Shown in pieces: positions 25,078 through 54,653 of a stretch of DNA of 55,720 bases (within the stretch, counting starts at the first letter, position 1; each line of letters opens with the position of its first letter). The notes under the pieces are model-generated. The model did not search any database. It saw nothing but the letters and a program-made list of their open reading frames with translations, and was not told the DNA's origin. Location of the stretch: the NCBI GenBank assembly GCA_963575745.1, contig CAUYUJ010000140.1, forward strand, positions 62,001-117,720. The letters run 5' to 3'. Made by a program: the position numbers and the translations under genes. The stretch comes from Prorocentrum cordatum. Lineage: Eukaryota.

Positions 25078-27284
<2,207 letters not shown>

Positions 27285-29185: not shown

Positions 29186-30244
29186 GGGGGGGATCCGTGC
29201 CCACGAGTCTCCACGAGTAAACAAGCAAATCGCTTGATACATTCTCGTCATCTGGCCCCCCTGGGGTGCGACAAACAGCGCCTCGCCCCAGGCATCTCCA
29301 AAAACTGCTCCGAAAGCGGAGGATGTTGGGAACCCAAACGGGCAAACCGCTTGAGACAGCCCCACATTGTGAGCGCGAAGGAAGAGTGAGATACCCGCGA
29401 GGAGGCGGTCTGAGTGTGAGCGATTCTGAATGTGACTAAATCCGAATGTGAGTGAGTCTGAGTAAGAAAATGATGAGAATGAGTCTCAGTCTGAGTGGGT
29501 CTGAGTACGATCGAATATGACTACGAGTGGGTCTGAAGGTGGATGGGTCGAAGTGTGAGTAACTCTGGGTGTGCGTAAATCCGAGGGCGAATGAGTCTGA
29601 GCATGAGGAGTATGGTGAGTACGAGTCTAAAGGCGAGTGGGTTTGACCATAAGTGGATATGAGACATCCTCACACTCTGGGCCCCCCTGGGGTACGAAAA
29701 CCAACGCCTAGCCCGAGGCATCCTCAGACGGTGCTTTGAACGCATACGAGCCTGGCCGACTAAACAAGCAAACCGCTCGGGCGCGAAAGCCAGAGCGTCG
29801 CCGGAGACACCACCAGGCGTTATTCATGTACGACCCGTCGCAGGTTAAGTCTTGCGTCGTCAGTAGAGCTTACGGGTACTTGGACGATCGCGTGGTCTCA
29901 CATGACACCCCCTTGCTCTGCGCTGGCAAGCATGCGTACCGCTCGAGACATCCACGCCATTGTGGCGCGAACGGAAGAATGAGATACCCCTGGGGGTGTT
30001 TCGACCCGCGCCGCGCCGCGCCTCCGCCATCATCATCATCATCATCATCATCATCACTACCACCATCATCGTCATCAGCATCACCAGCAACACCATCATC
30101 ATGAGCAGAATGAATATCCGCAGCAGCAGCAACATCATCCTCATCATCATCTGCATCATCAGCATGCGAAACAATATCATCACAACATAACACACCATTT
30201 CATACCATGTCATACCATAACAAATATATCCGAGCATGGAATAG

Positions 30245-32888
30245 TCAAGTCAAGTCAAATACGCCTTGCACCAAACGGTGCGTGAGCAGGGGTGAAAAAC
30301 AACGTGCGCGAACCATGCAACCAGCGTGCCTTCAGCATCTGGTCCACGCCTTCACCGCGCGCTCCCACGCTCGAGCTGCACCACCCTCCGGGTGGAAGTA
30401 AACAGCGAGTCGTTCGCGGGAGCCTGCGACCTTGAGACAATTGTTCCAGACTAAATGACCCCATGTCTGCCTCGGTCTGACCCGCTTTCTCGGGCCGGCC
30501 ACCTTGCGTAGCTCCAGGGTGCCCGGCTCAAACACCGATCGCCTCACAGGATCTTGGCCAGGTCGGCGCGCTAGCTGCCCCATGTAGATCATGTGCCGTC
30601 TTGCGAGGCAGTCGCTGAGCTTCGGCTGCTCGACGATTCCAAGTACAATGGCATTGGATACTTTGTTGATGTACGCCGGAGATATTTGGCATATCCTCTT
30701 GATGCAACGATTTTAACCTACGTCGCTCTGCTTGGTTCGGACACGCAGCAAAGAGGGCGCACATCAGCTTGGACACCACGCATACGTTGAATATGTGTAT
30801 CTTCTGGTCTCTGGTCAGGGAGGCATGTGACCAAATCGCGTGTAATATTTTGAAGTCCTGCATGGCTGCCCCGAGTCTGCGGCTCAATTCCGAAGCACAC
30901 CTCCCGTCGGCGGACAGCGTCGTGCCCAGGTAGACGAGGGGCTGCTTGTTGACGATGGGATCGCCAGTGTTGTCCGTGACGCCGTCCTCCGTCCGCACCT
31001 TCATGAGCTCCACTTTCTTCCAGTTGAAGAGGAGGCCGTAGTTCGCCCCAAACTTCTCGACGTACGTCATCAGCTCCTGGACGGCACCAGCGTCAGCGCC
31101 CATGGGCAGGGTGTCATCCGCGTACACCAAATCCCGGACCAGCTCCTCCGGCACCAGTCCACCTCGTCGCTCACGAAGCTCCTTGTGGGCATCATGTAGG
31201 AGCGTTGTCATCACAACTGCGCACAGAAATGGAGACAGAGGGCGCCCCTGACAGATGGCGTACTCCTGCGCCCTCTCCTGCGACTTGGCGCCGAAGTCGT
31301 CGACCACGAATCTGCGGCTTTGATATCTGGCAACGACCATGTTGACGAACCGGCCTGGGAAGCCACACCTCCGCAGAGAATTTGCCAGCGCCTCCGGCGA
31401 CGCGCAGTCAAAGGCCTTCGCCCAATCCAAAGCCAAGAAGACAGTCTTGCCGTCTCTAGCAGCCCACGTTGCTTCGAGAAATCGCCGGGCAATGAATATT
31501 GCATCAGCCGTACCACAGTTAGACCTGAATCCGAATTGTGTCTTCCATATGCGCTGCTCCGCCATGCGCCGGAGCATTACGAGTGCGAACATCTTATATC
31601 CGATCGGGAGGAAGCCGATCGGGCGATAGTTATTGCAGTCCGCGGGGTCGCCCTTCTTGTAAATCATTCTCACCTTCGCCTTCTGCCATGCATCTGGCAC
31701 GTCGCCCCTTTTCCCATACCAAAGTGCAGAAACGAGTGATCCATTCCAGCGCCCGCGTGCCGTCCTCGCATGCTGCTCGCCAGAACTCCGGAAGTATGTT
31801 GTCCATGCCCCCAGCTCGGCCTTGCCTAAGTTTGCCCGCTGCCTTGCTTACTTCTGCCTCTGTGATGGCGTCGAGGACAATCGGCAGCTCGTTCTCGTGC
31901 AAGGCGTCCATGGGCATTGCTGTCGTAGGGCGCGCTGCCCACTGCACTCTTTCTAGATGCGCCGCCAGAGCGTCGGCCCGGCTGTCGCTGTCCACGAGCT
32001 GGCCCGCACCATTCTTGAGTCGACCTTGCTGCGGGCAGAATCCTTTTCGAAGCTTCCTGATCTCGCCCCAGTCTCCTTTCGCAGTCAGCTCTTGCAGCCA
32101 GGCGGCCCGGTCGCTTGCGACTGCTTTTCTGATCTCTTTCGCCACTATAGTCTCGTCTGCCCGGTCCCCCCTCTGTCTGGCCACGGCGCGACGATCTATG
32201 CTCTCCAGCGTTCGAAGCCGTATCCACGGCTTCCTCGGGCGTCTGGTCTGCCGCGGGAGGGCGCACCCCGAGGCGCAGAGGAATCCGTCAGTGAGTTGGC
32301 ACCACGCTAGGTTCACGTCGGTGTGGTCCGGCGTCGCGGTAGCAAACTCCTCCAGTGCATCAGCAAGCTCATGCGTGAATTTATGTCAGGCGTCGTAGTT
32401 TTTAAACTTCGATGCGTCTGCCCTGGCAGCCTCGGTTTCGGGCGTCGTCTTATCCACCGTCGCGCGGACGCGCAACTGCAACAGAAAATGGCGCGATGAA
32501 AGCGGCGTGTCCCGGCAGACGCTCAGATCGAACACACTATGAGACCAAGACTGGGCGCACAACATAAGATCTATCTGGGAATGGGTCCTCCAATCCACTG
32601 TTTCGCCGGCGGACCGTCCTACGTTGTAGTTGGTAGCCAGCTGCTCTCGTGAGTATGGGAAAGATGTATTGGACATGCGCATGCCCAATTGCGTACGCAT
32701 CTCCACCAGCAGGTGTCTGTTCGCGTCAGTTTGACAAGTCTGCCCCGGATGCCGAAACACATATGGTCCGACGACCTGCCGTTTCGTCGATCCTTCTGTC
32801 ATATAACTTCGCATTGAAATCTCCCAGAACCATCTTTGGACCATGAGCAGACTGATAATGGACGAATTCCCCAATATCATGATATAAT
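30245..32888 (-). mobile_element. LINE-D: 5'-truncated RTE-like non-LTR retrotransposon (APE C-terminal half + RT)
   Basis: APE motifs VLGDFNAK, SQIDLML, SRHFLL; RT motifs KKGDP..NYRPIG, QFGFR, LDWAKAFD, QGRPLSPFL, LVYADD, LVYLG. (TTGAC)3-type 3' tail at 30245-30258; 82-bp flanking duplication. Confidence 0.93.
30528..31700 (-). pseudogene. Reverse transcriptase domain of LINE-D
   Basis: 390-aa ORF with the canonical RT motifs including YADD; frameshifted relative to 31630..32316 and 32386..32880. Confidence 0.92.
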
Positions 32889-33824
32889 CATGCGAAACGG
32901 TAGCATCGCAACATCACACACCATTCCATACCACGCCATACCATAACAACTATATCCTAGCATGGAATAGCATGGCATAGCACCACATAGCATGCCATAG
33001 CATAGCACGCCATACCGTCCATGGCATACCGTTCCATGCCATAGCAAACTATAAAAACAACACGTGTTTCAGAACATGCCGTTCCATAACATAACATCCG
33101 GGAGTGACTCCGGGCGAGGGAGAGGAGGAGGAAGGAGGTGAGTGGGCGGCCCCATTTCGGCGCGGTCGGAGTAAGAACAAGCAGCCCATCCTTCGGATAT
33201 GGGGAACACGAACCCCATCCTTTGAATATGGGGTGCATGGTCACACGAAACTCAACACAAAGCCCAACAGCAACAAGCACCCATCCAACACAAACAACAG
33301 CACACAATCATAACATCAACAACCGAAGCAGCAACAACAACCATCATGTTAAGACGTTTCAGTCTTACCTGCTCGCGTGCCAGTAGCACGTATATCCCAA
33401 GACCTCGATACCCGCCCTCTTCGTCTTCGAACGTACCCTCCTGGGGGGGATCTTCCTTGCCTGCCGCGCGTCATTGGCGCAGCCCGTGGAACAGTGGAAG
33501 AGAGGACGGATGGAAGGGACAGGGAAAAAGATGGAGCACGTCATTGGCAGGAGTCGGGCTAGGAGCAGAAAGCACGCGGCAAAACCAGACGGGCTGATCG
33601 GGCGGGTAGACCCTTACAAGCAGGTCGGGAAGGCGGGCCCCAGCGGCCAGGTCGAGCAGGCGGGCTGCCGAAGCGCGAGCAGGTACTGCGATAGCGATAG
33701 CGATAGCCCGTGCGAAGGCTCGAGCCCCAAGTGAACGGCGAGAAAAAAACAAGAGCGAGAGCACGATTCGTGACTATCGGGAGGGTCCCCTTACAACGGG
33801 GTCCGGAAGAAGGCGGAGGAGGAG

Positions 33825-38582: not shown

Positions 38583-38878
38583 AGGGACAGAGGAGGAAGG
38601 CGTTGTTCCTACCCCTGCTACGCTGGGGGGGGCAAGCCCCATGACCCCTGAAGACTGACGGCCACACACACACACAGTGAGCTGCGTGCGTGGAACACGC
38701 GGGGACCCACATGACAAGGCCACCACTGCCTTCGCAAAGAAGCTAGGCCAGAACTGAAAGGTCTGGCACGGAGCGGGATAACGGCCAGTGGGCGATTATC
38801 TTCGCGCTCTCGCCGCACTGCGGGTGGAGCCCGTATGAGGGGGACGGCAATGACGAGGAGGAGGAGGAGGAGCGCACG

Positions 38879-41800
38879 TGCCTCATGGGACTGGTTCGTG
38901 CGTCTATAATGAGAGAGCTGCCCGAACGGCCGCGCGCGCCTGCCTGAGCTGGGCGTCGGTCGCCCAGACCAGCGGCAGCAGCATGGGCCTCAACTTGTGG
39001 TAACTTGTGAAAGCTATCACGAGCGTCACGTGGGCTCGCTGTCGCCTGCCTTCCATCACGTCGTAGTCAGACTCACCCCCCGCGCCAAGGCGGACCCAAG
39101 GACACGCAGGGGGGAGGAACGACGCGAGGAGAGCAGCCGCGGCCCACAGACGCGGGCACACTATGTAGTGGGCGATCTCGCCTGGCAGGCTGCAGCCAAG
39201 CCGACAACGCGCCAGTGGGAGAATTTTAACCCGCCCACTCGTATTCCATGCGCCAGCTGGGGGCTTCATGTGAGGCCAGGGTCGGGGGGGGGGGGAGGGG
39301 ATCGAACGAGGAGGGCTCAGAGCGGGGCAAAGAGAGACGTGCATCTTTGAGCGATGCTAGTCTGAATGCGCCAACAAGGTGCGCACCATTTTCCCTGCAA
39401 GGCGCTCAACAGAGAACCGACAGCGAGGACACAGTCCTGGCTCCTCGTGCGAGCGCCGCGCCACTGCCGAAAAGTGTACCCTGCTGCTTGCCACACGCAC
39501 GACAGATTCATGCGCAGCATGGGTTCGGGGGCCCGTCGCCACCTCAGCCCATTCAGCTCGGACAGAGCGAAGAGCGATGGAGGTGAACGCAACAGCATAT
39601 GCCTAGCATGCGCTTCTTTCTGAAGCTGTCGGGGGGGAAAGGAAAGAACTGGGCAACATACGAGAGGCAGGGGCGGACGATCTTACGGAAGATACGCACA
39701 CGCGCGACAGCGGGGGCACGAGTGCTAGCAACTATCCTGCGTCGGGACCACCACTTTTGGCCCCCGGAGGCAAATTGATGTTCAATACTAGCACCTGGTC
39801 CAAATTGGACCCCTATATACCAGCAGAACCTACTTATCTCGAGCCCCGCCCATTCAGGGGTCACCGCCCAAACTTCCTCGCGCAACGCAGCTATCTCCGC
39901 TGGCGCTAGAATCTTCCAATCTGGAACAAGACGGCATTCCTTGGGCTGGAAGTTCAGATTCGACGGGGGCACAGGCAAGATAGGACGGCTGCCCGCTTCG
40001 CATGCAGCGGCGAGGTGACTGCAAACCGGGCCCGCCCCGAGCGCCCACAAGATCCCGCTCAGGGGCAGATCATTGCGCGGAATGGCAGGAAGGCGCGCAT
40101 CAGGGCATTTAGCGAAAGCCCCCTCAGAACGAGAAGCAGCAGCGAAGATCGGCTCCCAACGCTGCTTGATGACGTGGGCCATGGGCGCGGGCTCGCGCTC
40201 CACTGCGTCGGCGCCGCGCCGCCTGTGCTGGAGGCCGAGGTGCGCCATGCGTCTTCGCGAAGGGTTCCACGCCAGCGCTTGCCTCATAGTCGTCAGCTGC
40301 ATCTCCACCAGCCCTGGAGCACCTGCAAGCAAGTCGCCACCTTGGGGCAGCCGTGCTCTGCAAGAGGCCGACCGAGCCGCCTGCTGGGCCACTTCATCAG
40401 AGCGCTGCTGGCTGGATCACATGACGAGATTGCGGTGCTCGGCAGCGTTCTCAAGGTATACGGCGCTGTCGTCGGGGGCCCGCAGGAACAGCGGAGCGAT
40501 CTGAGAGCTTCCACGCTATCGATGGGCGGGGCGAGAGTCCTGCCGCCATACTGCTCGGACAATGGCCCGCGGCGTCATGCATTTCAGCTCTGCGGCCCGA
40601 TTGCAAGCTGGCAGCACAGGATATGTTTGCACTTCATCCCTCGCGGCGGCCGCGGCGAGGTGTACCAGCCCCTTCATGCAGGCGCGCTTCCCTTCCACGT
40701 CGTAGTTGAGCCAGTGGTCAGCGCCGATGCAATCCTGCAAAACCTGGCGGGGTAGGGACTGGTTGACAGCGTCGCTGACGTTGAGGCCTCCAGCATCCAT
40801 AGAAAAGGCAAGCCAGATCATCAGGATGAGCCCAGGACACATTCTGCGTCCAGCGAAGACGACTGCGTTGGCGTTGGTTGCACACTATCCCATACTTATG
40901 CATATTCGAGAACCGCACCACTTTGCTAGTGGCGGGGTTTGGAGTAGCGAATTGGTGCGCGCGTCCTGAAACGATATTGACTTGATCAAGTGGGGGTTCA
41001 TGACCAAAAGCCAGTTGTAGAATATGATTTGCGGATTGCCATGGTCTGATCATAGCGACCCCACCTCGATTTGGCCGAATGCCGTTCTCATCGGAGTCTT
41101 CGGGGCACCCAGGGTAGATAAGCTTGTGCTGTATATTGAACTGGTTCAGCATCGCCACCAGGGCAATGCATTGCCGCGGGCCTCTTGCAGCAGAAGCACA
41201 TGGGGGATAGGAGAAGCAGCTCCATCTGGAGGAACTTCTGATGCCGAAGCTGGTGAATGTAGCAGCCTAGCCCACGAGCGCCCCAACTAGCAACCCGCAT
41301 TTCTCGAGAGCTACCTTTTTCCACTTCCCAAGGACGCCACCTCCTGCTAGGAAAACGCCCATGCCGCAGCGTCCGCGCCCTGGAATTGTTGTTTGAGATG
41401 ATCTGCCATGAGCTGTATATTGATATTCTCCCGCGCAAATCCCCCTGGCGACCAACCCAACCTCGCGGCCTCATGCGGCCCCTGCGGTTGCACCTCGCCG
41501 GTGGGAGCTGAGTCTGAGTTGATGAGGCCAAGGGCGCGGGAAAGTCGCCGTTCTTGATCAGGATATTGTCGTTGAGGGAGCAGCAACGATATGTTACTTT
41601 GCCTTTCTTTGCGAACCTGCCTTGGTGATTTGTCAGAGTTGATATACAGCGCGCCCGTGGCTCCGCCGACCGCCAATTGCGAGGGGCGCCGCCAGGTTCC
41701 TCCAAGATGTCGAGGGTGCTGGGCCAGCTTGACAGCCCGAGCGATGCCAGCGGCACCGCCCGAACGACGAAAAAGAAAACACTTTGCCAGGAAACGGGCC

Positions 41801-42897
41801 GTAGACCGCGCACTATTCGCGTTGACGCCTGCATCGGGGATCCACTGCTTGAAGTAGTTCTGCACCTCGGTGCCGGCTGTGGCTTGAAGGCGGCCGATCC
41901 TAGAGATGCTGGAGATCCGTCGTGCACGGCGAACCTCGCCAACTCAACGGCGCCTGCTTGGGCGTCAGCAGCCTGAGCCAGCATGCGCCGCGCAGCTTCG
42001 AGATCCGATCGGAGAAGTCCTTGGCGAGCCCCCGTGGAGACAGCTCGCGCTTGAAGGCGCCGAGTGTCACATTTGCGCGCGTCCCGCCGCGCAGCTTGGG
42101 GCCGCAGAAGTCCAACATCGGCGCCGCGAGTGTCGCTGAGGGCTTATCCCATGATGGAGGTGAGCTCCGATCGCACCCCGAGCATCTGCTGGCAGAAGGC
42201 TGCCGCGCCCGCCGCCTCGAAGCCGTTTGCCGTGGAGGCGGCTGAACTCCTCGAAGATCCATCGGCACTTTCGGCCACATGTCCAGTAGAGACAGCACGT
42301 CCAGCACCGCGCCGCAGGTCACCACGCCCATGAAGCGGATCTCCCTTGCGATGACCAGGCACGCCCTCTGGGGGGGTCGGGGCGAGCTCGGTCTCGCGAG
42401 CCAGACTTGGCGTGGGCGACGGGGAGACGCCCGCAGCACCAGTACCACAATGGCCGCCGTCAGCAGAAGCAGGAACGCTCGCGCCGCGGCGCAGGTCGGA
42501 CTCATCATCGCGGCACGCATGCTCACGGCTCCCGCTACAAGAACGCGACGCGGAGCCATCGGCCCGATCTCACCGCCGACGACGAACCTCGCCTCGCCCT
42601 CTCTTCGACGTCGCCGTGCACGACGGTCATGAGCAGAGGCGCCGCTGCTGGCCCTTCTGGGATCGAAGGCTCCATCGCTCGGCAAGCGACGCGACGCGTG
42701 AAATATGAGGGTTGAGGGCGAGTGTCAGAAAGAGAACTTATGAAATAGGTCGGGGGGGCCACAAGTCACGAGCACTGAAGCCCCAGCGCCGCGAGGCCTG
42801 CCCTCGCAAGAAGGGCGCTCTGAGCCGCCCCCGTCGGCCGCGATCAAGCTCGAAACACCTGGGAAGCGTTTCGAACTTGAGCCAGAATGGCTACGGA
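38879..42897 (-). mobile_element. LINE-E: 5'-complete, SL-capped non-LTR retrotransposon (ORF1 + APE-RT-CCHC ORF2), internally deleted
   Basis: SL at the 5' end; putative ORF1 remnants ~42680-41500 (LYINSDKSPRQVRKE); APE motifs RVASWGARGL, DVLLLQEARG, RGGVA, IVSGRA; RT remnants PLSGILWAL and WYIGVQFGPG; zinc knuckle CRLGC..HYIVC. TSD GGAGGAGGAGGAGGAGCSCACG (21/22) at 38857-38878 and 42910-42931. Confidence 0.83.
42876..42897 (-). other. Dinoflagellate spliced leader, 21/22 match
   Basis: Plus strand CTTGAGCCAGAATGGCTACGGA. Confidence 0.95.
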
Positions 42898-42965
42898 AGG
42901 GGGGGGGGGGGAGGAGGAGGAGGAGCCCACGCCACTGGAGAGGCGCACCGCCCCTCCACCCGCGG

Positions 42966-45900
42966 CTAGGCCTCGGCCGCGCTGGCCGCGCCGCCCGCCT
43001 CCTCAGAACTGAAGTCGTAGAAGTCGCCGTCCACCATATAGTCAGCGGCGACGCCCGCGCCGTCGGCATCCAGCCCGTCGCAGTCCATCATCTCATCGTG
43101 ACTGAGCGCGGGCAAGTGTTCGTCCCCATCAATAGGACCCGGACGCAGATCTCCAGCATCCCCATCATCTCCAGCACCCCCGTCAGGAAGTGGTGCATCA
43201 TCAATATTCTCCACTTGCTCCTCCTCCACGCCATCGCACATGTCTTCCAGACCATCATGACTAGGTCCAGTAGTACCGCCCGCACTGGGCCCCATGGCAG
43301 CAGCCAGCTCCTCGGTGAATTCGCCCTCTTCCTCGTAGTCGCCCCCGATCTCAGACTCAAGGACCGCGGAGGTGTTCAGCACAGTACAACTGTCGCAGTC
43401 CGCGTCCCCGACGCCGGCTCCAGTGGGAGTTCAGCAACGTCCTCATCCTCCTCAGCGCGAGCAATGTCTGTCCCAAGGCTGGGAAGGGGGCGCAGATCCA
43501 TAATCACCTTTCAATTCCAGGAGAGACCCAGGGTTGCGCAGCATCCACAGTACTAGCCTTGGTTGGTCTTCAGGAAGAGCATAATGCGAGTCCAGAAATT
43601 GAATGGCCGTGCTCAACTGCGATGGAGTCAACATCCTCGTATCATCATCTCCTCGAGGCGTCTCATGCATGGAGGCGGTGACCGCGGACTTGACGAACAG
43701 GCTGACCATTTGGAGTGCCCGAAGTTGATTGGTGGCTCGACGTTCCTTTGTTTCAGCGCCACCTTGGTCACCATTCGTAGCTACCGAAGAGGCAGCATAA
43801 TTCGATCGATGAACCGCATCCAACTTTCGATCAGGGCATATCGCCGCGAGGCCGTGCGCCGCCATAATTTGGTTGAACAGATCGACCGACCTGCCCGATA
43901 CATCTTCCCCTGGTAAATCTTCCTTCCGCCGCAGAAGCCGATGGCACCGCAGGATGCGCCGCAAAAGACGGCGCGGTGGCCAACCCTTCCAGGGCCGCGC
44001 TGCTTGCGGCGCCGCCCTCCGCAATGCCGACGTGGATGATGTCGCCGTTCTCACCGCGGGCCGCGTCTCCTCCGTCTGGTACCGCGTCCGAAGGCGAGGT
44101 GGCCGCATCTGAAATGTGGGCGGCGTCCACGGCCTCTAGATTATCATCACCATGACACACCGAACTGCCCACTTGAGATGCCATAGTTGCTGCAAGAGCA
44201 TGGGTGAGTTCGTCTTCGTCAGCTGAGTCGGTCGTTGCTTCAGCGGCCAATCCCGCGGCGGTGCATAGCGCAGTCCCATTCTCTCCATCAGCGTCTTCAA
44301 CTGCGTGAATCAGCACGAGTTCGTCGAAGGGCGCTTCTTCATCTTCCAGAGAGAAGGGTTCGGTTTCAACACCAGTAGGGGGCGTCGATCCATATTCGCT
44401 GGCCAGTTCCAAATGGGATTCAGGGTGTTGCAATATCCAAAGAACTAGCTCTCGTTGCTCGTCGGGAAGAACGTAGAGTGTGCCCGGACATTGGGTAGCC
44501 AATATCAGCTGCTCAGGCGTTAGAATGTTTGTGTCCACATCTACCTGCTGTTCTCCATTGTGCGTGGCAGGAATTGCGGACCTGGCAAGCTCAATGACCG
44601 TCTGTGGCGTTCGACGTCGAATGAAAGCTTGGAGTGCTTCAGGGTCTGCATGCCCTTGCCCGCTGCCTGCAGCGCCCCCGAAACGCACGCGCACCTCAGC
44701 TGTCCCATGTGAGGTCTGCTCTTCGCTAGAGCCCGCTGTCGCAGATTGCCCCCCCGCCGAGGACAACGCGGTGCCGCCGTGACACGCGCCGCCAAGAGCC
44801 CCATCATGAAATATTACACCGAAGCCGCGCATTGCCATTGCACGGTTGAACAGATCCTCCGAAGTGCTGGGTGCACCTTCCTCAGGTATATGCCCCACTG
44901 CAGGGGGCGACGGCGCTGCGCGCGGCGCCGAGGAAGAGGCGGCCGTAGCATTCCCAGTCTCGCGGCGTTGGAGCTCCCGCGAACGGCGCCTCGCCATCTG
45001 AACTAGTGCTTCGAATTCCTCATCCGTACAAATCAGCCCAAAATGGTGTGAGTATTCAGCGGGATCAAACGTATCACCTTCCAATATTGGCGGCGCCGTA
45101 GCACCTGCCGCAGACGCTGCAACTGCGCCAGCCGCTTCCGCCATGCGCTCGATGTCGCCATCCGGAAGGTTAGGGCAACCGTCTTCCGCAATGCTTCCGT
45201 CATCTTCGCCAGGGCATGGCCCATCACCCGCGCCGCGCTCAGGTTGCGCACGGCACTGAAAGAAGGAACGGCTGAGAGAGGATATCTTTGGGAGGCGAAC
45301 GGCGTGGAGACTTCTGATCCTGCGAAATGCCAGCACGCCCTTCCTCAGGCATCCTCGTGATGTTCGGGCACCAGTCCACATGTCGCAGTAGTGCCATCCC
45401 TTTACGCATCAGCAATGTGAGTCTGCGGCGATCGAGAGAAGGCCATTGATGCTGAACTTGCCGTCGCAAGCGTTCCCGTGGGATCGCCCCCGAGTACCAG
45501 CCACGCATGCAAAATTCGATAGCCATTTCCCATCTCTCCGTGCTGTCCGATAATGCGTTAGCCTCGCGCTGGAGGAGGTCTCTGAAACAATTAAATCGCA
45601 GTGTGTCGGCGACGTAGGGCACGCACCATTCCAACCACTGTTGGAAGTCGCTTCCGCTGCTGGAGAGAACCAAAGAGGGGGTCCAGCCCTGTGCCCAGGT
45701 GCCAATGCGATCCACCAACGCAGCTCAACGGGGGTGGTTCATGTGCGGCAGCTCGGGCGCAGCGCCCACAGTAGTGCATGGCGCACCCCGTGAGAGGTCC
45801 AGCGTCGAGGGTTTGGCGCGCCGTTCGCAGTTGTCGCCGGCACGCAGCATCCGAGCAAGTTCTTCCGCACGATGATCAAGGACATCCAGGCCGTCCTGGC

Positions 45901-46994: not shown

Positions 46995-49900
46995 TAGGTC
47001 GCTTGGCTCCTCGGATGGCCCCATTCCTTGGCTGGTTTCGGTTGTTCTGGCTTGTTTTCGTTTGTCCGTCGATCGCAGTGGCAGCCTTTCGGTCGCTCGG
47101 CCCTTCGGCTGGCCAAATGCGTTGGTTTTGTTTGTTTCTGTTTGTTTTCGCTTGTCCGTCGGCTGCACTGGTCGCCCCAGGCCCGCCCGCGGCCTTTCGG
47201 TCGCTCGGCCCCTCGGCTGGCCAAATGCATTGGTTTTGTTTGTTTTTGTTTGTTTTCGCTTGTCCGTCGGCTGCACTGGCCGCCCCAGGCCCGCCCGCAG
47301 CCGTTCGGTCGCTCGGCCCCTCGGCTGGCCCAATTCACTGGTTTTGTTTGATTCTGTTTGTTTTCGCTTGTCCGTCGGCTGCGCTGGTCGCCCTGCGCAC
47401 GCCCGCCGCCCCGCGGTCGCTCGGCCCCTCGGCTGGCCCCATTCCTTGGTTTTGTTTGATTCTGTTTGTTTTCGCTTGTCCGTCGGCTGCACTGGTCGCC
47501 CCAGGCCCGCCCGCCGCCCCGCGGTCGCTCGGCCCCTCGGCTGGCCCCATTCCTTGGCGTTCTTTGTTTCTGTTTGTTTTCGCTTGTCCGTCGGCTGCAC
47601 TGGTCGTCTCAGGCCCGCCCGCCGCCGTTCGGTCGCTCGGCCCCTCAGCTGGCCCAATTCCCTGATGTTGTTTGTTCTTGTTTGTTTTCGCTTGTCCGTC
47701 GGCTGCACTGGACGCCCCAGGCTCGCCCGCCGCCTTTGGGTCACTCGGCCCCTCGGCTGGCCCCGCTCCCTGGCTTTCTTTGTTTCTGTATGTTTTCGCT
47801 TGTCCGTCGGCTGCACTGGTCGCCTCAGGCTCGCCCGCCGCTCCGCGGTCGCTCGCCCCCTCGGCTGGCCAAATGCATTGGTTTCGCTTGTGTTTGTTTG
47901 TTTTCGCTTGTCCGTCGGCTGCGCTGGTCGCCCCAGGCTCGCCCGCCGCTGTTCGGTCGCTCGGCCCCTCGGCTGGCCCAATTCCCTGATGTTGCTTGTT
48001 GTTGTTCGTGTTCGCTTGTCCGTCAGCTGCGTTGGTCGCCCCAGCCTCGCCCGCCACCCCGCGGTCGCTCGGCCCCTCGGCTGGCCCCTTTCCACTGTTT
48101 CGTTTGTTTTTGTTTGTTTTCGCTTGTCCGTCGGCTGCGCTGGTCGCCCCAGGCTCGCCCGCCGCCCCGCGGGCGCTCGGCCCCTCGGCTGGCCAAATTC
48201 ACTGGTTTTGTGTGTTTTTGCTTGTTTTCGCTTGTCCGTCGGCTGCACTGGTCGCCCCAGGTTCGCCCGCCGCCCCGCGGGCGCTCGGCCCATCGGCTGG
48301 CCCAATTCATTGGTTTTGTTTGTTTTTTGTTTGTTTTCGCTTGTCCGTCGGCTGCACTGGTCGCCCCAGGCCCGCCCGCCGCCCCGCGGTCGCTCGGCCC
48401 CTCGGCTGGCCCCATTCATTGGTCTTGTTTGTTTCGGCTTGTTTTCGCTTGTCCGTCGGCTGCACTGGTCGCCCCAGGCCCGCCCGCAGCCGTTCGGTCG
48501 CTCGGCCCCTCGGCTGGCCCAATTCACTGGTTTTGCTTGTTTTTGTTTGATTTCGCTCGTCCGTCGGCTGCACTGGTCGACCTGCGCACGCCCGCCGCCT
48601 TTCGGTCGCTCGGCCCCTCGGCTGGCCCCATTCCCTGGCTTTCTTTGTTTCTGTTTGTTTTCGCTTGTCCGTCGGCTGCAGTGGTCGCCTCAAGCTCGCC
48701 CGCCGCCCCGCGGTCGCTCGGCCCCTCGGCCGGCCAAATGCATTGGTTGCGTTTGTTGTTTGTTTTCGCTTGTCCGTCGGCTGCGCTGGTCGCCCCAGGC
48801 CCGACCGCCGCCGTTCGGTCGCTCGGCCCCTCGGCTGGCCCAATTCACTGGTTTTGCTTGTTTTTGTTTGATGGTCGCCTCAAGCTCGCCCGCCGCCCCG
48901 CGGTCGCTCGCCCCCTCGGCTGGCCAAATGCATTGGTGTTGTTTGTTGTTGTTTGTTTTCGCTTGTCCGTCGGCTGCGCTGACCGCCCCAGGCCCGCCCG
49001 CCGCCGCTCGGCCGCTCGGCCCCTCGGCTGGCCCAATTCAGTGGTTTTGTTTGTTGTTTTTGTTTGTTTTCGCTTGACCGTCGGCTGCACTGGTCGCCCT
49101 GCGCGCACCCGCCGCCTTTCGGTCGCTCGGCCCCTCGGCTGGCCCTTTTTCCTTGGCTTTCTTCGTTTCCGTTTGTTTTCGCTTGTCCGTCGGCTGCACT
49201 GGTCGCCCCAGGCTCGCCCGCCGCCCCGCGGTCGCTCGGCCCCTCGGCTGGCCAAATGCATTGGTTTTGTTTGTTGTTGCTTGTTTTCGCTTGTCCGTCG
49301 GCTGCGCTGGTCGCCCCAGGCCCGCCCGCCGCCGTTCGGTCGCTCGGCCCCTCGGCTGGCCCAACTCACTGGTTTTGTTTGTATTTTGTTTGTTTTCGCT
49401 TGTCTGTCGGCTGCACTGGTCGCCCTGCGCACGCCCGCCGCCTTTCGGTCGCTCGGCCCCTCGGCTGGCCCCATTCCCTGGCTTTCTTTGTTTCTGTTTG
49501 TTTTCGCTTGTCCGTCGGCTGCACTGGTCGCCTCGGGCCCGCCCGCCGCCCCGCGGTCGCTCGGCCCCTCGGCTGGCCAAATGCATTGGTTTTGTTTGTT
49601 TTTGTTTGTTTTCGCTTGTCCGTCGGCTGCCCTGGTCGCCCCGGGCCCGCCCGCCGCCGTTCGGTCGCTCGGCCCCTCGGCTGGCCCAATTCATTGGTTT
49701 CGTTTGTTTTTGTTTGATTCCGCCTGTCCGTCGGCCGCACTGGTCGCCCTGCGCGCGCCCGCCGCCTTTCGGTCGCTCGGCCCCTCGGCTGGCCCCACTC
49801 CCTGGCTTTCTTTGTTTCTGTTCGTTTTCGCTTATCCGTCGGCTGCACTGGTCGCCTCAGGCTCGCCCGCCGCCCCGCGGCAGCTCGGCCCTTCGGCGGG

Positions 49901-52900
49901 CCCCATCCATGGTTTTGTTTCTGTTTGTTTGTGTTTGCTTGTCCGTCGGCTGCGCTGGTCGCCCCAGGCTCGCCCGCCGCCGTTCGGTCGCTCGGCCCCT
50001 CGGCTGGCCCAATTCACTGGTTCTGCTTGTTTTTGTTTGATTTCGCTTGTCCGTCGGCTGCACTGGTCGCCCTGCGCACGCCCGCCGCCTTTCGGTCGCT
50101 CGGCCCCTCGGCTGGCCCCATTCCCTGGCTTTCTTTGATTCTGTTTGTTTCCGCTTGTCCGTCGGCTGCAGCGGTCGCCTCAAGCTCGCCCGCCGCCCCG
50201 CGGTCGCTCGACCCCTCGGCCGGCCAAATGCATTGGTTTTGTTGGTTGTTGCTTGTTTTCGCTTGTCCGTCGGCTGCACTGGTCGCCCCAGGCCCGCCCG
50301 CCGCCGTTCGGTCGCTCGGCCCCTCGGCTGGCCCAATTCACTGGTTTTGTTTGTTGTTTTTGTTTGTTTTCGCTTGTCCGTCGGCTGCACTGGTCGCCCT
50401 GCGCGCGCCCGCCGCCTTTCGGTCGCTCGGCCCCTCGGCTGGCCCCATTCCCTGGCTTTCTTTGTTTCGTTTGTTTTCGCTTGTCCGTCGGCTGCACTGG
50501 TCGCCTCAAGCTCGCCCGCCGCCCCGCGGTCGCTCGCCCCCTCGGCTGGCCAAATGCATTGGTTTTGTTTGTTTTTTTGTTGTTTTCGCTTGTCCGTCGG
50601 CTGCGCTGGTCGCCCCAGGCCCGCCCGCCGCCGCTCGGTCGCTCGGCCCCTCGGCTGGCCCAATTCACTGGTTTTGTTTGTTGTTGTTTGTTTGTTTTCG
50701 CTTGTCCGTCGGCTGCGCTGGTCGCCCTGCGCGCGCCCGCCGCCTTTCGGTCGCTCGGCCCCTCGGCTGGCCCCTTTCCTTGGCTTTCTTCGTTTCTGTT
50801 TGTTTTCGCTTGTCCGTCGGCTGCGCTGGTCGCCCCAGGCTCGCCCGCCGCCCCGCGGTCGCTCGGCCCCTCGGCTGGCCAAATGCATTGGTTTTTTTGT
50901 TGTTTGTTGTTTTCGCTTGTCCGTCGGCTGCGCTGGTCGCCCCGGGCCCGCCCGCCGCCGTTCGGTCGCTCGGCCCCTCGGCTGGCCCAATTCACTGGTT
51001 TTGTTTGTGCTTTGTTTGTTTTCGCTTGTCTGTCGGCTGCACTGGTCGCCCTGCGCGCGCCCGCCACCTGTCGGTCGCTCGGCCCTTCGGCTGGCCCCAT
51101 TCCCTGGCTTTCTTTGTTTCTGTTTGTTTTCGCTTGTCCGTCGGCTGCACTGGTCGCCTCGGGCTCGCCCGCCGCCCCGCGGTCGCTCGGCCCCTCGGCT
51201 GGCCAAATGCATTGGTTGTGTTTGTTCTTGTTTGTTTTCGCTTGTCCGTCGGCTGCACTGGTCGCCCCAGGCCCGCCCGCCGCCGTTCGGTCGCTCGGCC
51301 CCTCGGCTGGCCCCACTCCCTGGCATGATTTGTTTCTGTTTGTTTTCGCTTGTCCGTCGGCTGCACTGGTCGCCTCAGGCTCGCCCGCCGCACCGCGGTC
51401 GCTCGGCCCCTCGGCTGGCCAAATGCACTGGTTTTGTTTGCTTTTGTTTGTTTTCGCTTGTCCGTCGGCTGCACTGGTCGCCCAGGCCCGCCCGCCGCCG
51501 TTCGGTCGCTCGGCCCCTCGGCTGGCCCAATTCAATGGTTTTGTTTGTTTTTGTTTGTTTTCGCTTGTCCGTCGGCTGCGCTGGCCGCCCTGCGCGCGCC
51601 CGCCGCCTTTCGGTCGCTCGGCCCCTCGGCCGGCACCATTCCCTGGCTGTCTTTGTTTCTCTTTGTGTTCGCTTGTCCGTCGGCTGCGCTGGTCGCCTTA
51701 GGCTCGCCCGCAGCCCCGCGGTCGCTCGGCCCCTCGGCTGGCCAAATGCATTGGTTTTGTTTGTTTTTGTTTGTTTTCGCTTGTCCGTCGGCTGCACTGG
51801 TCGCCCCAAGCCCGCCCGCCGCCGCTCGGTCGCTCGGCCCCTCGGCCGGCCCAATTCACTGGTTTTGTTTGTGTTTGTTTGTTTTTCGCTTGTCCGTCGG
51901 CTGCACTGGTCGCCCTGCGCGCGCCCGCCGCCTTTCGGTCGCTCGGCCCCTCGGCTGGCCCCATTCCCTGGCTTTCTTTGTTTCTGTTGGTTTTCGCTTG
52001 TCCGTCGGCTGCACTGGTCGACTCAGGCTCGCCCGCCGCCCCGCGGTCGCTCGGCCCCGGTTTTGTTTGTTTTTTGTTTGTTTTCGCTTGTCCGTCGGCT
52101 GCGCCGGTCGCCCCAGGCCCGCCCGCCGCCGCTCGGTCGCTCGGCTGGCCCAATTCACTGGTTTTGTTTTTTTTTGATGTTTTCGCTTGTCCGTCGGCTG
52201 AACTGGTCGCCCTGCGCGCGCCCGCCGCCTTTCGGTCGCTCGGCCCCTCGGCTGGCCCCATTCCCTGGCTTTCTTTGTTTCTGTTTGCTTTCGCTTGTCC
52301 GTCGGCTGCGCTGGTCGCCTCAGGCTCGCCCGCCGCCCCGCGGTCGCTCGGCCCCTCGGCTGGCCAAATGCATTGGATTTGTTTGCTTTGGTATGTTTTC
52401 GCTTGTCCGTCGGCTGCGCTGGTCTGGCGCCTCAGGCCCGCCCGCCGCCGTTCGGTCGCTCGGCCCCTCGGCTGGCCCAATTCACTGGTTTTGTTGTTGT
52501 TTTGTTTGTTTTCGCCTGTCCGTCGGCTGCACCGGTCGCCCTGCGCACGCCCGCCGCCTTTCGGTCGCTCGGCCCCTCGGATGGCCCCATTCCCTGGTTT
52601 TCTTTGTTTCTGGTTGTTTTCGCTTGTCCGTCGGCTGCACTGGTCGCCTCAGGCTCGCCCGCCGCCCCGCGGTCGCTCGGCCCCTCGGCTGGCCAAATGC
52701 ATCGGTTTTGTTTGTTTTTGTTTGTTTTCGATTGTCCGTCGGCTGCACTGGTCGCCCCGGGCCCGCCCGCCGCCGTTCGGTCGCTCGGCCCCATCGGCCG
52801 GCCCAACTCACTGGTTTTGTTTGTTTTTGTTTGTTTTCGCTTGTCCGTCGGCAGCACTGGTCGCCCTGCGCGCGCCCGCCGCATTTCGGTCGCTCTGCCC

Positions 52901-54653
52901 CTCGGCTGGCACCATTCCCTTGCTTTCTTTGTTTCTGTTTGTTTTCGCTTGTCCGTCGGCTGCACTGGCCGCCTCAGGCTCGCCCGCCGCTCCGCGGTCG
53001 CTCGGCCCCTCGGCTGGCCAAATGCGTTGGTTTTGTTTGTTGTCGTTTGTTTTCGCTTGTCCGTCGGCTGCGCTGGCCGCCCCGGGCCCGCCCGCAGCCG
53101 TTCGGTCGCTCGGCCCCTCGGCTGGCCAAATACATTGGTTTTGTTTGATGTTGTTTGTTTTCGCTTGTCCGTCGGCTACACTGGTCGCCCTGCGCACGCC
53201 CGCCGCCTTTCGGTCGCTCGGCCCCTCGGCTGGCCCCATTCCCTGGCTTTCTTTGTTTCTGTGTGTTTTCGCTTGTCCGTCGGCTGCGCTGGCCACCTCA
53301 AGCTCGCCCGCCGCCCCGCGGTCGCTCGGCCCCTCGGCTGGCCAAATGCATTGGTTTTGTTTGTTTTTGTTTGTTTTCGCTTGTCCGTCGGCTGCGCTGG
53401 TCGCCTCAGGCCCGCCCGCCGCCGTTCGGTCGCTCGGCCCCCCGGCTGGCCCAATGCATTGGTTTTGTTTGCTTTTGTTTGATTTCGCTTGTCCGTCGGC
53501 TGCACTGGTCGCCCTGCGCGCGCCCGCCGCCTTTCGGTCGCCCGGCCCCTCGGCTGGCCACATTCCCTGGCTTTCTCTGTTTCTGTGTGTTTTCGCTTGT
53601 CCGTCGGCTGCACTGGTCGCCCCAAGCTCGCCCGCCGCCCCGCGGTCGCTCGGCCCCCCGGCTGGCCAACTGCACTGGTTTTGTTTGTTTTTGTTTGTTT
53701 TCGCTTGTCCGTCGGCTGCACTGGTCGCCCCAGGTCCGCCCGCCGCCGTTCGGTCGCTCGGCCCCTCGGCTGGCCCAATTCACTGGTTTTGTTTGTTTTT
53801 GTTTGTTTTCGCTTGTCCGTCGGCTGCACTGTCGCCCTGCTGCGCACAAGCCCGCCGCCTTTCGTCGCTCTCAGAGCCCCCCGGCTGCCCCATTCCCTAA
53901 AAAATGTTGTTTCATTGTTCTGTTTTTTTCGCTTGTCGTCGGCTGCACTGGTCGCCTCAGGCTCGCCCGCCGCCCCGCGGTCGCTCGGCCCCTCGGCTGG
54001 CCAAATGCATCGGTTTTGTTTGTTTTTGTTTGTTTTCGCTTGCCCGTCGGCTGCGCTGGTCGCCCCAGGCCCGCCCGCCGCCGTTCGGTCGCTCGGCCCC
54101 TCGGCTGGCCAAATTCACTGGTTTTGTTTGTTTTTCTTGTCCGTCGGCTGCACTGGTCGCCCTGCGCACGCCCGCCGCCTTACGATCGCTCGGCCCCACG
54201 GCTGGCCCCATTCCCTTGCTTTCTTTGTTTCTGTTTGTTTTCGCTTGTCCGTCGGCTGCACTGGTCGCCTCAGGCTCGCCCGCCGCCTTTCGGTCGCTCG
54301 GCCCCTCGGCTGGCCAAATGCATTGGATTTGTTTGTTTTTGTTTGTTTTCGGTTGTCCATCGGCTGCACTGGTCGCCCCGGGCCCGCCCGCCGCCGTTCG
54401 GTCGCTCGAGGCCCCTCGGCTGGCCCAAGTCATTGGTTTTGTTTGTTTTTGTTTGGTTTTCGCTGTCCGGTCGCTGACACGGGTCGCCCAGGCCGTGCAG
54501 CCGCCGTTCGGTCGCTCCGGCCCTCGGCGGCCAAGATGCATGGGTTTTGTTTGATTTTGTGTTTGTTTTCGCTTGTCCGTCGGCTGCACTGGTCGCCCTG
54601 CGCACGCCCGCCGCCTTTCGGTCGCTCGGAGCCCTCGGCTGGCCCCATTCCCT
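46995..54653 (+). repeat. 108-bp satellite array (~70 monomers), mostly a 3-monomer (~324-bp) higher-order repeat
   Basis: TTTTCGCTTGTCCGTCGGCTGC recurs at 47145, 47253, 47361, 47469...; three monomer types alternate. Confidence 0.97.

What the first reader, a model, noticed from the sequence alone, without database searches (positions are those of the whole stretch)
38857..42931. A LINE retrotransposon whose 5' end is the spliced leader itself
Seen: a 21/22 full-length DinoSL is followed directly by a ~200-nt leader, putative ORF1 remnants and an APE-RT-CCHC ORF2, all bracketed by a 22-bp TSD (12 extra nt lie between SL and TSD). Established: dinoflagellate mRNAs are SL trans-spliced and recycled as retrogenes; SLACS/CRE and NeSL elements insert into SL-RNA genes, which is a different arrangement. 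Inference: this LINE's RNA was trans-spliced and copied to the very first SL base. The element may therefore use host trans-splicing, rather than an internal promoter or a 5' ribozyme, to define and cap its 5' end.
Basis: partly seen in the sequence, partly recalled or inferred. Interest (0 to 1): 0.85.

Follow-up and report, generated by a model that had tools for sequence, protein, structure and literature searches.

The report
Spliced-leader-headed decayed LINE copy in dinoflagellate
A broken copy of a jumping gene (a LINE) in a dinoflagellate genome starts exactly with the 22-base leader that these algae splice onto their messenger RNAs, which suggests that LINE-type machinery copied a leader-bearing RNA back into DNA, but one copy cannot show that this is the element's regular way of life.

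Summary
The sequence features are real. On the minus strand, a 21/22 DinoSL (42897-42876) lies 12 nt inside a 21/22, 22-bp direct repeat (42931-42910 and 38878-38857). That repeat brackets a 4-kb poly(A)-less unit whose 3' 2 kb is homologous to APE+RT non-LTR ORF2 proteins.

The copy is badly decayed. The RT core is missing (motifs 1-A and motif C 'ACADD'), and there are in-frame stops and frameshifts. APE is seen only as motifs. The 1.6 kb between the SL and ORF2 has no detectable homolog.

My best reading (0.6) is a single target-primed retrotransposition of an SL-trans-spliced RNA that ended in the LINE's own 3' end and was copied to SL base 1.

That the lineage routinely uses trans-splicing to make its 5' end is not shown (about 0.3). 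No genome was held and no second copy could be fetched.

In the one DNA run with exact matches, SL plus the first 30 nt of leader is about 40 times deeper than the LINE body. A diverged copy stops aligning at about 42688. This fits a foreign leader, from 5' transduction or a template-switch chimera.

I found no paper describing an SL-headed LINE. Interest is moderate; I class it as a new variant of known kinds.

The parts
42910..42931 (-). 5' copy of the 22-bp flanking direct repeat (candidate target-site duplication), CGTGGG + (CTC)n
   Evidence: 21/22 identical to 38878-38857; among 17 (CTC)n tract starts (136 pairs), 4 pairs share at least 5/6 of the upstream hexamer. This is the only pair whose hexamer is not itself CTC-like.
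42898..42909 (-). 12 extra nucleotides (C11T) between the repeat and the SL
   Evidence: Not duplicated at the 3' side. The origin is inferred: untemplated addition at the 5' junction, or microsatellite-derived.
42876..42897 (-). Full-length dinoflagellate spliced leader, 21/22 (T13 to C)
   Evidence: 2 matches in the window against 0.01 expected; followed by TT, not a GT/GC donor.
42844..42880 (-). 17-bp hairpin made of the last 5 nt of the SL plus leader nt 1-32
   Evidence: fold; 0 of 1000 shuffles of the 32 nt after the SL fold as well (-26.6 kcal/mol). The function is unknown.
42676..42875 (-). 200-nt leader. In run X1 it is much more abundant than the rest of the element
   Evidence: summed contig depth is 161 at 42846-42890 (11 contigs) and 16.6 in bin 42686-42846 (29.3 at site 42801), against 2.5-7.5 (0-7.5 counting four near-empty bins) over the body. 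No Rfam match. No second copy in the window.
41347..42675 (-). Undecoded region between the first ATG and ORF2 (possible ORF1 remnant). Open frames of 274, 141, 351 and 198 aa
   Evidence: No homologs. Diverged copies (about 16-17% different) exist in X1 over 41594-42688.
40700..41300 (-). ORF2 start and APE-like endonuclease remnant, frameshifted and shortened
   Evidence: Motifs read. Weak position-consistent match to P0090 residues 18-29. Not significant.
40123..40695 (-). Post-APE linker of ORF2, with two in-frame stops
   Evidence: (P0001 E 3e-21; P0051 and P0067 E about 1e-6), and alignments.
39964..40122 (-). All that is left of the RT core: a motif B remnant (LPLSGILWALG...AAACE). Motifs 1-A and motif C are deleted
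   Evidence: about 297-299 residues of relatives against 160 nt. (alignment with P0003 and P0065).
39580..39963 (-). RT motifs D/E and the thumb region
   Evidence: 128 hits, most over query residues 152-270; this region follows RVT_1 in relatives..
38907..39356 (-). C-terminal domain with the CCHC knuckle (CRLGC...HYIVC) and the natural ORF2 C-terminus
   Evidence: E about 2e-8; alignment.
38879..38906 (-). ORF2 stop (TAG, 38906-38904) and a 25-nt 3' tail without poly(A)
   Evidence: Relatives end at the same place.
38857..38878 (-). 3' copy of the 22-bp flanking direct repeat

Best explanation
This is a dead, internally deleted copy of a dinoflagellate non-LTR retrotransposon. Its ORF2 is of the APE - RT - C-terminal CCHC type, from a lineage whose RT motif C reads ACADD. 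It entered this site in one target-primed reverse-transcription event, from an RNA that already carried the spliced leader.

Proposed steps:
1. A sense-oriented LINE copy was transcribed, most simply as part of a longer polymerase II transcript in a co-oriented gene array.
2. The precursor was SL trans-spliced about 200 nt upstream of the first ATG.
3. The RNA ended at the LINE's own 3' end, 25 nt after the ORF2 stop, without poly(A). This is the end that this kind of RT recognises.
4. An ORF2 protein (its own or a relative's) nicked a (CTC)n-bearing target 35 nt downstream of a host ORF's stop.
5. It copied the RNA to SL base 1. Twelve extra nucleotides were added at the 5' junction, and a 22-bp staggered cut gave the flanking duplication.

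Shown: the SL, the repeat, the ORF2 homology, the missing RT core, and the poly(A)-less 3' end.

Inferred: trans-splicing of the template, who supplied the RT, and when the deletions arose.

Within this reading I lean slightly to the leader being foreign: a 5' transduction from the parent copy's upstream flank, which already had an SL acceptor. I give that about 0.25-0.3, and about 0.3 to the leader being the LINE's own 5' UTR.
For: - SL 21/22 at the 5' boundary: 2 matches in the window against 0.01 expected.
- A 21/22, 22-bp repeat brackets exactly SL through the ORF2 3' end. Its non-microsatellite hexamer match is the only non-CTC-like one among 136 tract pairs.
- The 3' 2 kb is homologous to ORF2 proteins. 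There are 128 hits at E<=1e-3, best 8e-17. Of 12 long hits scanned, 8 carry RVT_1 and 3 carry Exo_endo_phos plus RVT_1. The mapping is colinear and CCHC is retained.
- There is no poly(A), and the ORF2 C-terminus coincides with that of relatives. This agrees with the published description of Symbiodinium LINEs: TSDs, conserved UTRs, no poly(A) (PMC5890265, figure legend read).
- TT follows the SL, so this is not an SL-RNA gene (PMC6616646 section 3.3).
- The upstream ORF, both SLs and a second LINE fragment all lie on the minus strand.
Against: - This is one copy only. No second copy of the family was obtained from any collection.
- The 1.6 kb between the SL and ORF2 has no homolog, so its belonging to the LINE is unproven.
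- APE is not statistically supported.
- Sixteen of the 22 repeat bases are (CTC)n, which is very common here: 217 hits of a 13-mer.
- The motif CGTNNGCTCCTCCTCC occurs a third time, 26 nt after the stop of the ORF behind the window's other SL. So it may be a target or tail motif rather than a pure duplication.
- The X1 depth profile shows the SL-leader joined to many loci that do not share the LINE body.
Confidence: 0.6

Rival explanations
1. One reading: SL trans-splicing is the regular way this LINE lineage makes and caps its 5' end. Full-length progeny would then normally begin with the SL, and the leader would be the LINE's own 5' UTR. The terminal AG of an encoded SL could serve as acceptor, so that each cycle replaces the SL without leaving a relic.
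For: - Established knowledge: dinoflagellate nuclear mRNAs are SL trans-spliced (passages in PMC5585692, and PMC7245778), and LINE proteins prefer the RNA they were translated from (recalled). A translated LINE RNA should therefore carry the SL.
- In run X1 the start of the leader is joined to the 3' part of the SL in the contigs that cover it (11 contigs).
- Song 2017 found the GO term 'RNA-dependent DNA replication' enriched among DinoSL-relict genes (PMC5585692).
- There is a single SL without a relic.
Against: - No second SL-headed copy of this LINE was seen.
- In X1 the leader is about 4-40 times deeper than the body, the opposite of 5'-truncating LINEs. A diverged body copy stops aligning at 42688.
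- The description of full-length SymbioLINEs mentions conserved 5' UTRs but no SL (PMC5890265: 0 occurrences of 'spliced leader').
- A preprint argues that DinoSL retroposition and RT genes are independent (10.1101/783902).
Confidence: 0.3
2. Template-switch chimera of the U6/L1 type. The RT finished, or abandoned, the LINE RNA and jumped onto an abundant SL-bearing RNA, either an mRNA 5' end or an 'SL-like' small RNA, and copied it to its 5' end. The LINE RNA itself need not have been trans-spliced.
For: - In X1, SL plus 30 nt is a discrete high-copy unit (11 contigs, depth 161), and 3 contigs diverge right after it at 42845.
- The unit forms a strong hairpin.
- Expressed 'SL-like' loci without GU/GC donors are reported in Fugacium (PMC6616646 section 3.4).
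- L1 chimeras with full-length small RNAs at the 5' end are known (recalled).
Against: - Such chimeras are rare among LINE insertions (recalled).
- Several X1 contigs continue along the window's leader beyond +30 (depth 16.6 in bin 42686-42846, 29.3 at site 42801).
- No junction signature could be examined.
Confidence: 0.2
3. Coincidental neighbours. An SL-headed retrocopy fragment and a LINE fragment arrived separately, and the flanking 22-mer is a microsatellite-driven chance match or a shared target/tail motif.
For: - (CTC)n tracts are abundant.
- There is a third copy of CGTNNGCTCCTCCTCC at 33830-33815.
- The other SL unit's candidate flank repeat is no better than (CTC)n controls: score 29 against up to 33 among 38 tract segments.
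Against: - The 5' copy lies just upstream of the SL and the 3' copy abuts the natural ORF2 end. Two independent events would have to share these ends.
- The non-repeat hexamer match is the only non-CTC-like one among 136 tract pairs.
Confidence: 0.1
4. A site-specific LINE inserted in an SL-RNA gene (SLACS/CZAR/CRE or NeSL type).
For: Only the adjacency of a LINE and an SL.
Against: - The whole SL lies at the element's 5' end.
- It is followed by TT rather than a GU/GC intron (PMC6616646).
- No SL-gene sequence follows the 3' end. The far side is the 22-mer repeat and the 3' flank of a host ORF.
Confidence: 0.02

Closest known systems
Recycling of processed, SL-bearing cDNAs in dinoflagellates (Slamovits & Keeling 2008, recalled; Song et al. 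2017, PMC5585692, passages read)
   Same: A DNA-encoded DinoSL marks a copy made from a mature trans-spliced RNA.
   Different: Here the cargo is a LINE, not a host gene. The SL is complete rather than a relic. There is no poly(A) remnant, and a 22-bp flanking duplication is visible, which points to a LINE-type (TPRT) insertion.
SymbioLINE elements of Symbiodinium (de Mendoza et al. 2018, PMC5890265, passages and figure legend read)
   Same: Two-ORF LINE layout with Exo_endo_phos + RVT_1 in ORF2, flanking duplications, and no poly(A) tail.
   Different: No DNMT signal in the upstream region (Pfam). That paper does not mention an SL at the 5' end. I could not see its supplements or the consensus sequences.
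SLACS/CZAR/CRE (trypanosomatids) and NeSL-1 (nematodes), recalled
   Same: LINEs physically associated with spliced-leader sequence.
   Different: Those insert into SL-RNA genes at a fixed site, and SLACS borrows the SL gene promoter. Here the SL is a complete 5' cap-proximal copy outside any SL gene.
L1Tc/ingi with the Pr77 internal promoter (PMC1874656 and PMC8190864, abstracts from the search listing only)
   Same: LINEs living in a host where mRNAs are SL trans-spliced.
   Different: Pr77 gives unspliced transcripts, so those LINEs bypass trans-splicing. The present copy carries the SL.
L1 5' transduction and U6/L1-type chimeric retrocopies (recalled)
   Same: A foreign 5' segment joined to a LINE inside one duplication. 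This matches the excess copy number of the SL-leader.
   Different: Not demonstrated here. The 5' segment would be an SL-bearing RNA or flank.
Cer1 of C. elegans (PMC3315495, passages read)
   Same: A retrotransposon RNA that receives a spliced leader.
   Different: In Cer1 only a spliced 2.4-kb subgenomic mRNA carries SL1, and the 8-kb genomic RNA is not trans-spliced. It is an LTR element.

Membership tests
Non-LTR (LINE) retrotransposon | Reverse transcriptase of non-LTR type | tested here: inconclusive
   Homology to the RT thumb, motifs D/E and motif B of APE+RT proteins is strong. But motifs 1-A and catalytic motif C are deleted, and Pfam RVT_1 does not hit the window.
Non-LTR (LINE) retrotransposon | APE-type endonuclease upstream of the RT | tested here: inconclusive
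   Motifs are seen by eye in the right place and order. No significant match. Relatives P0027, P0067 and P0090 do carry Exo_endo_phos.
Non-LTR (LINE) retrotransposon | Flanking target-site duplication, no LTRs | tested here: met
   21/22, 22-bp direct repeat. It is the only non-CTC-like hexamer match among 136 (CTC)n tract pairs. No long terminal repeats.
Non-LTR (LINE) retrotransposon | C-terminal CCHC domain of this ORF2 lineage | tested here: met
Dinoflagellate processed retrogene | DNA-encoded DinoSL at the 5' end | tested here: met
Dinoflagellate processed retrogene | Copy of a host mRNA with a poly(A) remnant | tested here: not met
   The cargo is LINE ORF2. There is no A-run at the 3' end.
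SL-RNA-gene-specific LINEs (SLACS/CRE/NeSL) | Insertion inside an SL-RNA gene, with SL gene sequence on both sides | tested here: not met
   The SL is followed by TT, not GU/GC (criterion from PMC6616646). The far flank is not SL-gene sequence.
SymbioLINE-Dnmt | ORF1 encoding a cytosine methyltransferase | tested here: not met
   No DNA_methylase hit for any upstream frame, even at E<=10. Decay could hide it.
SymbioLINE-Dnmt | TSD, no poly(A), APE+RT ORF2 | tested here: inconclusive
   TSD and the lack of poly(A) are met. The ORF2 domains are only partly demonstrable. No SymbioLINE sequence was available to compare.

The most novel reading that the evidence does not exclude
Dinoflagellate LINEs have no 5' end of their own. 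Each cycle, host SL trans-splicing supplies the cap and the first 22 bases, and cis-acting ORF2 protein copies that SL back into DNA. The encoded SL, with its U-rich tract and terminal AG, would then serve as the acceptor (and perhaps the promoter-like TTTT motif) for the next round, giving a self-renewing SL head. The same poly(A)-independent TPRT machinery, with a taste for (CTC)n targets, would be the long-sought engine of DinoSL retrogene formation.
Probability: 0.3. Interest if true: 0.8.

Novelty: new variant of a known kind. Interest (0 to 1): 0.55.

Why it matters
The field knows that dinoflagellates recycle SL-bearing cDNAs on a large scale. It does not know which reverse transcriptase does it.
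- One review calls the agent unknown and favours LTR elements (PMC6050394, passages read).
- A preprint even treats retroposition and retrotransposition as independent processes (10.1101/783902).

A LINE copy that is itself SL-headed, poly(A)-less and bracketed by a 22-bp duplication is a concrete example of LINE-type insertion producing a full-length SL-bearing retrocopy. That makes the question testable: look for the same duplications, tails and (CTC)n targets at retrogenes.

It also raises a contrast with trypanosomatid LINEs, which bypass trans-splicing with an internal promoter. Do LINEs in a trans-splicing host depend on the SL instead?

Tried and rejected
- Whole genome: none held.
- Other copies in the window: none by blastn or by tblastn with 128 relatives.
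- Public collections with the leader as a DNA pattern: metagenome contigs 0, genome contigs 0.
- Public collections with a protein alignment:
  - Viral contigs: none.
  - Metagenome contigs: one locus, L120, which proved spurious. 0 of 128 relatives hit it, and it holds no SL.
  - Genome contigs: none.
  - P0090 and P0027 in viral contigs: none.
- Exact DinoSL in IMG/VR gave 119 loci, but they are AT-rich giant-virus bins with 0 LINE hits.
- Sequencing runs: no RNA holder listed, so nothing can be said on expression. X2, X5 and X6 gave only microsatellite or tiny pieces.
- Protein searches for the 5' region and APE found nothing: word-indexed; Atlas; PDB; Pfam; own APE HMM.
- A hint that 42262-42017 resembles RT motifs 0-2 (tblastn E 3.0) was not borne out by phmmer. 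I treat it as chance.
- DNMT-like motifs that I thought I saw in the upstream frames got no support.
- Paralogy between the upstream host ORF and the second SL unit's ORF: no tblastx hit. The alignment beyond the 16-nt motif is not significant.
- A TSD for the second SL unit is no better than (CTC)n controls.
- GC3 and GC profiles gave no usable frame or junction signal. Rfam gave nothing relevant.
- SL-derived peptides at the N-termini of relatives: 0 of 128.
- Our earlier findings: three look-ups, all empty.
Full report
**What is in the sequence**

The element lies on the minus strand. Read 5' to 3' it has these parts:
- the 22-mer CGTGGGCTCCTCCTCCTCCTCC (42931-42910);
- twelve extra bases, C11T (42909-42898);
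- TCCGTAGCCATTCTGGCTCAAG (42897-42876), which is DinoSL with one change (TTTT to TTCT);
- a 200-nt leader up to the first ATG (42675);
- about 1.3 kb of open but undecodable frames;
- an ATG at 41300 that opens an ORF2-like region running to a TAG at 38906-38904;
- 25 more bases;
- the second copy of the 22-mer, CGTGCGCTCCTCCTCCTCCTCC (38878-38857).

The SL pattern has 2 matches in the window at up to 3 mismatches, against 0.01 expected. The other match is a perfect SL at 35606-35585 on the same strand. There is no A-run at the 3' end.

**Is it a LINE?**

Pfam recognises no relevant family in any of 12 ORF pieces. An exhaustive phmmer search with the 287-aa frame 40416-39556 found 128 proteins at E<=1e-3, with a best E of 8e-17. 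Of 12 long hits scanned, 8 carry RVT_1. Three of them (P0027, P0067, P0090; about 1000-1200 aa) carry Exo_endo_phos plus RVT_1.

Mapping these proteins back onto the window and phmmer of all 27 minus-strand pieces against them give colinear homology:
- the post-APE linker (40884/40695-40123);
- the RT thumb (39963-39580);
- the following region (39682-39320; E 4e-14 against the 128 fetched proteins);
- the C-terminal domain (39356-38907; E about 2e-8 against the 128 fetched proteins).

In the C-terminal alignment the window keeps the C..C..H..C knuckle, as do 11 of 13 rows. The reading frame ends where relatives end.

The RT core is gone. About 297-299 residues of P0067 and P0006 correspond to only 160 nt of the window. 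The closest relatives, P0003 and P0065 (63% and 53% identical), show two things. The window jumps from the linker directly into motif B (LPLSGILWALG). It also lacks about 52 residues that include motif C, which reads ACADDV in this lineage.

Two in-frame stops and at least two frameshifts interrupt the alignable part.

APE is seen only as motifs in the right order from the ORF2 ATG: MRVASWGARGL, VLLLQEARG, RGGVAMI. One weak, position-consistent match to P0090 supports it (E 3.2). Nothing significant came.

So 'APE-RT-CCHC' is right as ancestry, not as present content. P0090's RT matches solved R2 and L1 structures only weakly (E 2e-8 to 5e-4). I did not place the clade.

**The 5' 1.6 kb**

I found no homolog for any upstream frame. 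The searches were the word-indexed search, Pfam up to E 10, PDB and the 128 relatives.

Two things I thought I saw did not survive testing. One was an RT motif-0/1-like stretch at 42262-42017. The other was DNMT-like motifs, which a SymbioLINE would have. Both failed.

The leader begins with a 17-bp hairpin that includes the last 5 nt of the SL. None of 1000 shuffles folds as well. Its meaning is unknown.

**Is the flanking repeat a duplication?**

Sixteen of its 22 bases are (CTC)n, which is abundant here. The six bases before the tract also match, 5 of 6.

I found 17 (CTC)n tract starts in the window, which make 136 pairs. Only 4 pairs share at least 5/6 of the upstream hexamer. The other three are CTC-like continuations.

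The 5' copy lies 35 nt after the stop of a long upstream minus-strand ORF. The 3' copy abuts the natural ORF2 end. One insertion event is the economical reading.

A caveat remains. CGTNNGCTCCTCCTCC occurs exactly three times in the window against 0.06 expected. The third copy (33830-33815) sits 26 nt after the stop of the ORF that follows the window's other SL. It could be a preferred target, a shared tail motif or chance. Similarity beyond the motif is not significant.

**Other copies**

No genome is held. All scans of the collections failed, or in one case returned a spurious locus.

The one informative source is run X1, a DNA run kept as contigs, which may be the very sample behind the window. 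Of 109 contigs laid, 7 are at least 99% alike, 2 are 95-99%, 30 are 90-95% and 70 are under 90%.
- Exact contigs cover parts of the element.
- Copies that differ by about 16-17% cover 41594-42688, so the upstream region is at least low-copy repetitive.
- Summed depth is 2.5-7.5 in most body bins (0-1.6 in four). It is 16.6 for bin 42686-42846 (29.3 at site 42801), and 161 in 11 contigs over 42846-42890. That last stretch is the last 15 nt of the SL plus the first 30 nt of the leader.
- All 11 of those contigs carry the same two differences from the window.
- Three of them diverge from the window right after +30.
- The diverged contig that covers 42444-42688 has 116 further bases that do not align.

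Contig depths are crude, and 183 rows of the output were not shown. Even so, the picture is of an SL-leader module that is much commoner than this LINE body.

**Context**

The second SL heads a frameshifted ORF with no recognisable family. Its candidate flank repeat is no better than (CTC)n controls.

Downstream lies an unrelated RTE-like LINE fragment (RVT_1 E 2e-26), 5'-truncated in APE. It is bracketed by an 87-nt direct repeat at 86% identity. This shows that LINE insertions with clear duplications occur in this region.

**Mechanism and rivals**

My best reading (0.6) is that an SL-trans-spliced RNA, ending in the LINE's own poly(A)-less 3' end, was copied by target-primed reverse transcription to SL base 1. 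Untemplated bases were added at the 5' junction, and a 22-bp staggered cut made the duplication.

Whether the leader is the LINE's own 5' UTR or a 5' transduction from the parent's flank is open. The first would make SL-heading the rule for the lineage (about 0.3).

A U6/L1-like template switch onto an abundant SL-bearing RNA is a real rival (0.2). The discrete high-copy SL+30 unit favours it, and expressed 'SL-like' loci without GU/GC donors are reported in Fugacium (PMC6616646 section 3.4).

Chance adjacency gets 0.1. Insertion into an SL-RNA gene is excluded by the TT after the SL and by the flanks.

SL divergence (1/22) and repeat divergence (1/22) are compatible with an age like that of the neighbouring RTE insertion. 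I therefore cannot say whether the deletions predate the insertion.

**Literature**
- I read passages of PMC5585692: the GO term 'RNA-dependent DNA replication' is enriched among DinoSL-relict genes, and the RT source is unknown.
- I read passages of PMC6050394: which retroelement mediates retroposition is unknown, and LTR elements are favoured.
- I read passages of 10.1101/783902: retroposition and retrotransposition are called independent, and LINEs are old (Kimura 20-30).
- I read passages of PMC8045281 and PMC12014239.
- I read passages and a figure legend of PMC5890265: SymbioLINEs have TSDs, conserved UTRs and no poly(A), and the text has no occurrence of 'spliced leader'.
- I read passages of PMC3315495: only Cer1's subgenomic mRNA carries SL1.
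- I saw the abstract of PMC1874656 in a search listing only: Pr77 gives unspliced L1Tc transcripts.
- Four full-text searches listed no paper that describes a LINE whose 5' end is the SL. Supplements, such as the SymbioLINE consensus sequences, were not seen and could bear on this.
- What I say about SLACS/CRE/NeSL, L1 cis-preference, 5' transduction and U6/L1 chimeras is recalled.

**Verdict**

The element is a decayed LINE, not an intact APE-RT-CCHC unit.

The core inference, that an SL-bearing RNA was copied to its first base by LINE-type insertion, is the best reading. The adaptive claim rests on one copy and is weakened by the copy-number profile.

I class it as a new variant of known kinds. 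Interest is 0.55. It would rise to about 0.8 if a genome-wide census shows SL-headed full-length copies as the rule.

Noticed in passing
L001-L119 (IMG/VR loci), e.g. L020:6001-6021, L054:3298-3318: The exact DinoSL occurs in 119 IMG/VR stretches (134 distinct contexts). Nearly all are AT-rich giant-virus bin contigs. There the SL sits directly after a conserved AT-rich motif and in front of ORFs, sometimes with tandem SL or relic copies (L024). This looks like genome-encoded spliced leaders at viral gene starts. A listing of 12 of 16 papers for 'giant virus + spliced leader + dinoflagellate' showed none on this.
   Followed up: partly
window 35606-33815 (-): A second, perfect 22/22 DinoSL lies 7.3 kb downstream on the same strand, also preceded by (CTC)n. 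It heads a frameshifted ORF with a 63-nt triple repeat and a Cys/acidic C-terminus that ends at TAG 33859-33857. There is no poly(A). No family was found. Its candidate 17-nt flank repeat is not better than controls.
   Followed up: partly
window 33830-33815, 38878-38863, 42931-42916 (-): CGTNNGCTCCTCCTCC occurs exactly three times in the window (0.06 expected). The sites are both flanks of the LINE and a point 26 nt after the stop of the second SL unit's ORF. It could be a target-site or 3'-tail motif. Unexplained.
   Followed up: partly
window 32970-30158 (-): An unrelated RTE-like LINE fragment, with RVT_1 E 2e-26 and a weak DUF6451 hit, truncated inside APE (VLGDFNAKL onward). Its 3' end carries (TTGAC)3. 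It is bracketed by an 87-nt direct repeat, 30158-30244 and 32884-32970, at 86% identity.
   Followed up: partly
window 42880-42844 (-): The last 5 nt of the SL and the first 32 nt of the leader form a 17-bp hairpin with a CCC loop (-26.6 kcal/mol; 0 of 1000 shuffles fold as well). The same 45 nt is the high-copy unit in run X1, whose contigs all carry C at 42857 and 42855.
   Followed up: partly
window 42966-45408 (-): The upstream host ORF has an internal duplication: modules around 44520-44400 and 43630-43500 share ...P(E/S)QL...LP(D/E)(E/D)Q..LVLW(I/M)L..P.S.LEL...YGS.PP. It ends in an acidic tail. Pfam found no family.
   Followed up: no
window 47000-54000 and 25000-27000: There are long stretches of extreme strand asymmetry: AT skew about -0.75 over 47-54 kb, and GC skew of +0.6 to +0.7 with low GC at 25-27 kb. 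These are probably simple-repeat arrays. I did not examine them.
   Followed up: no
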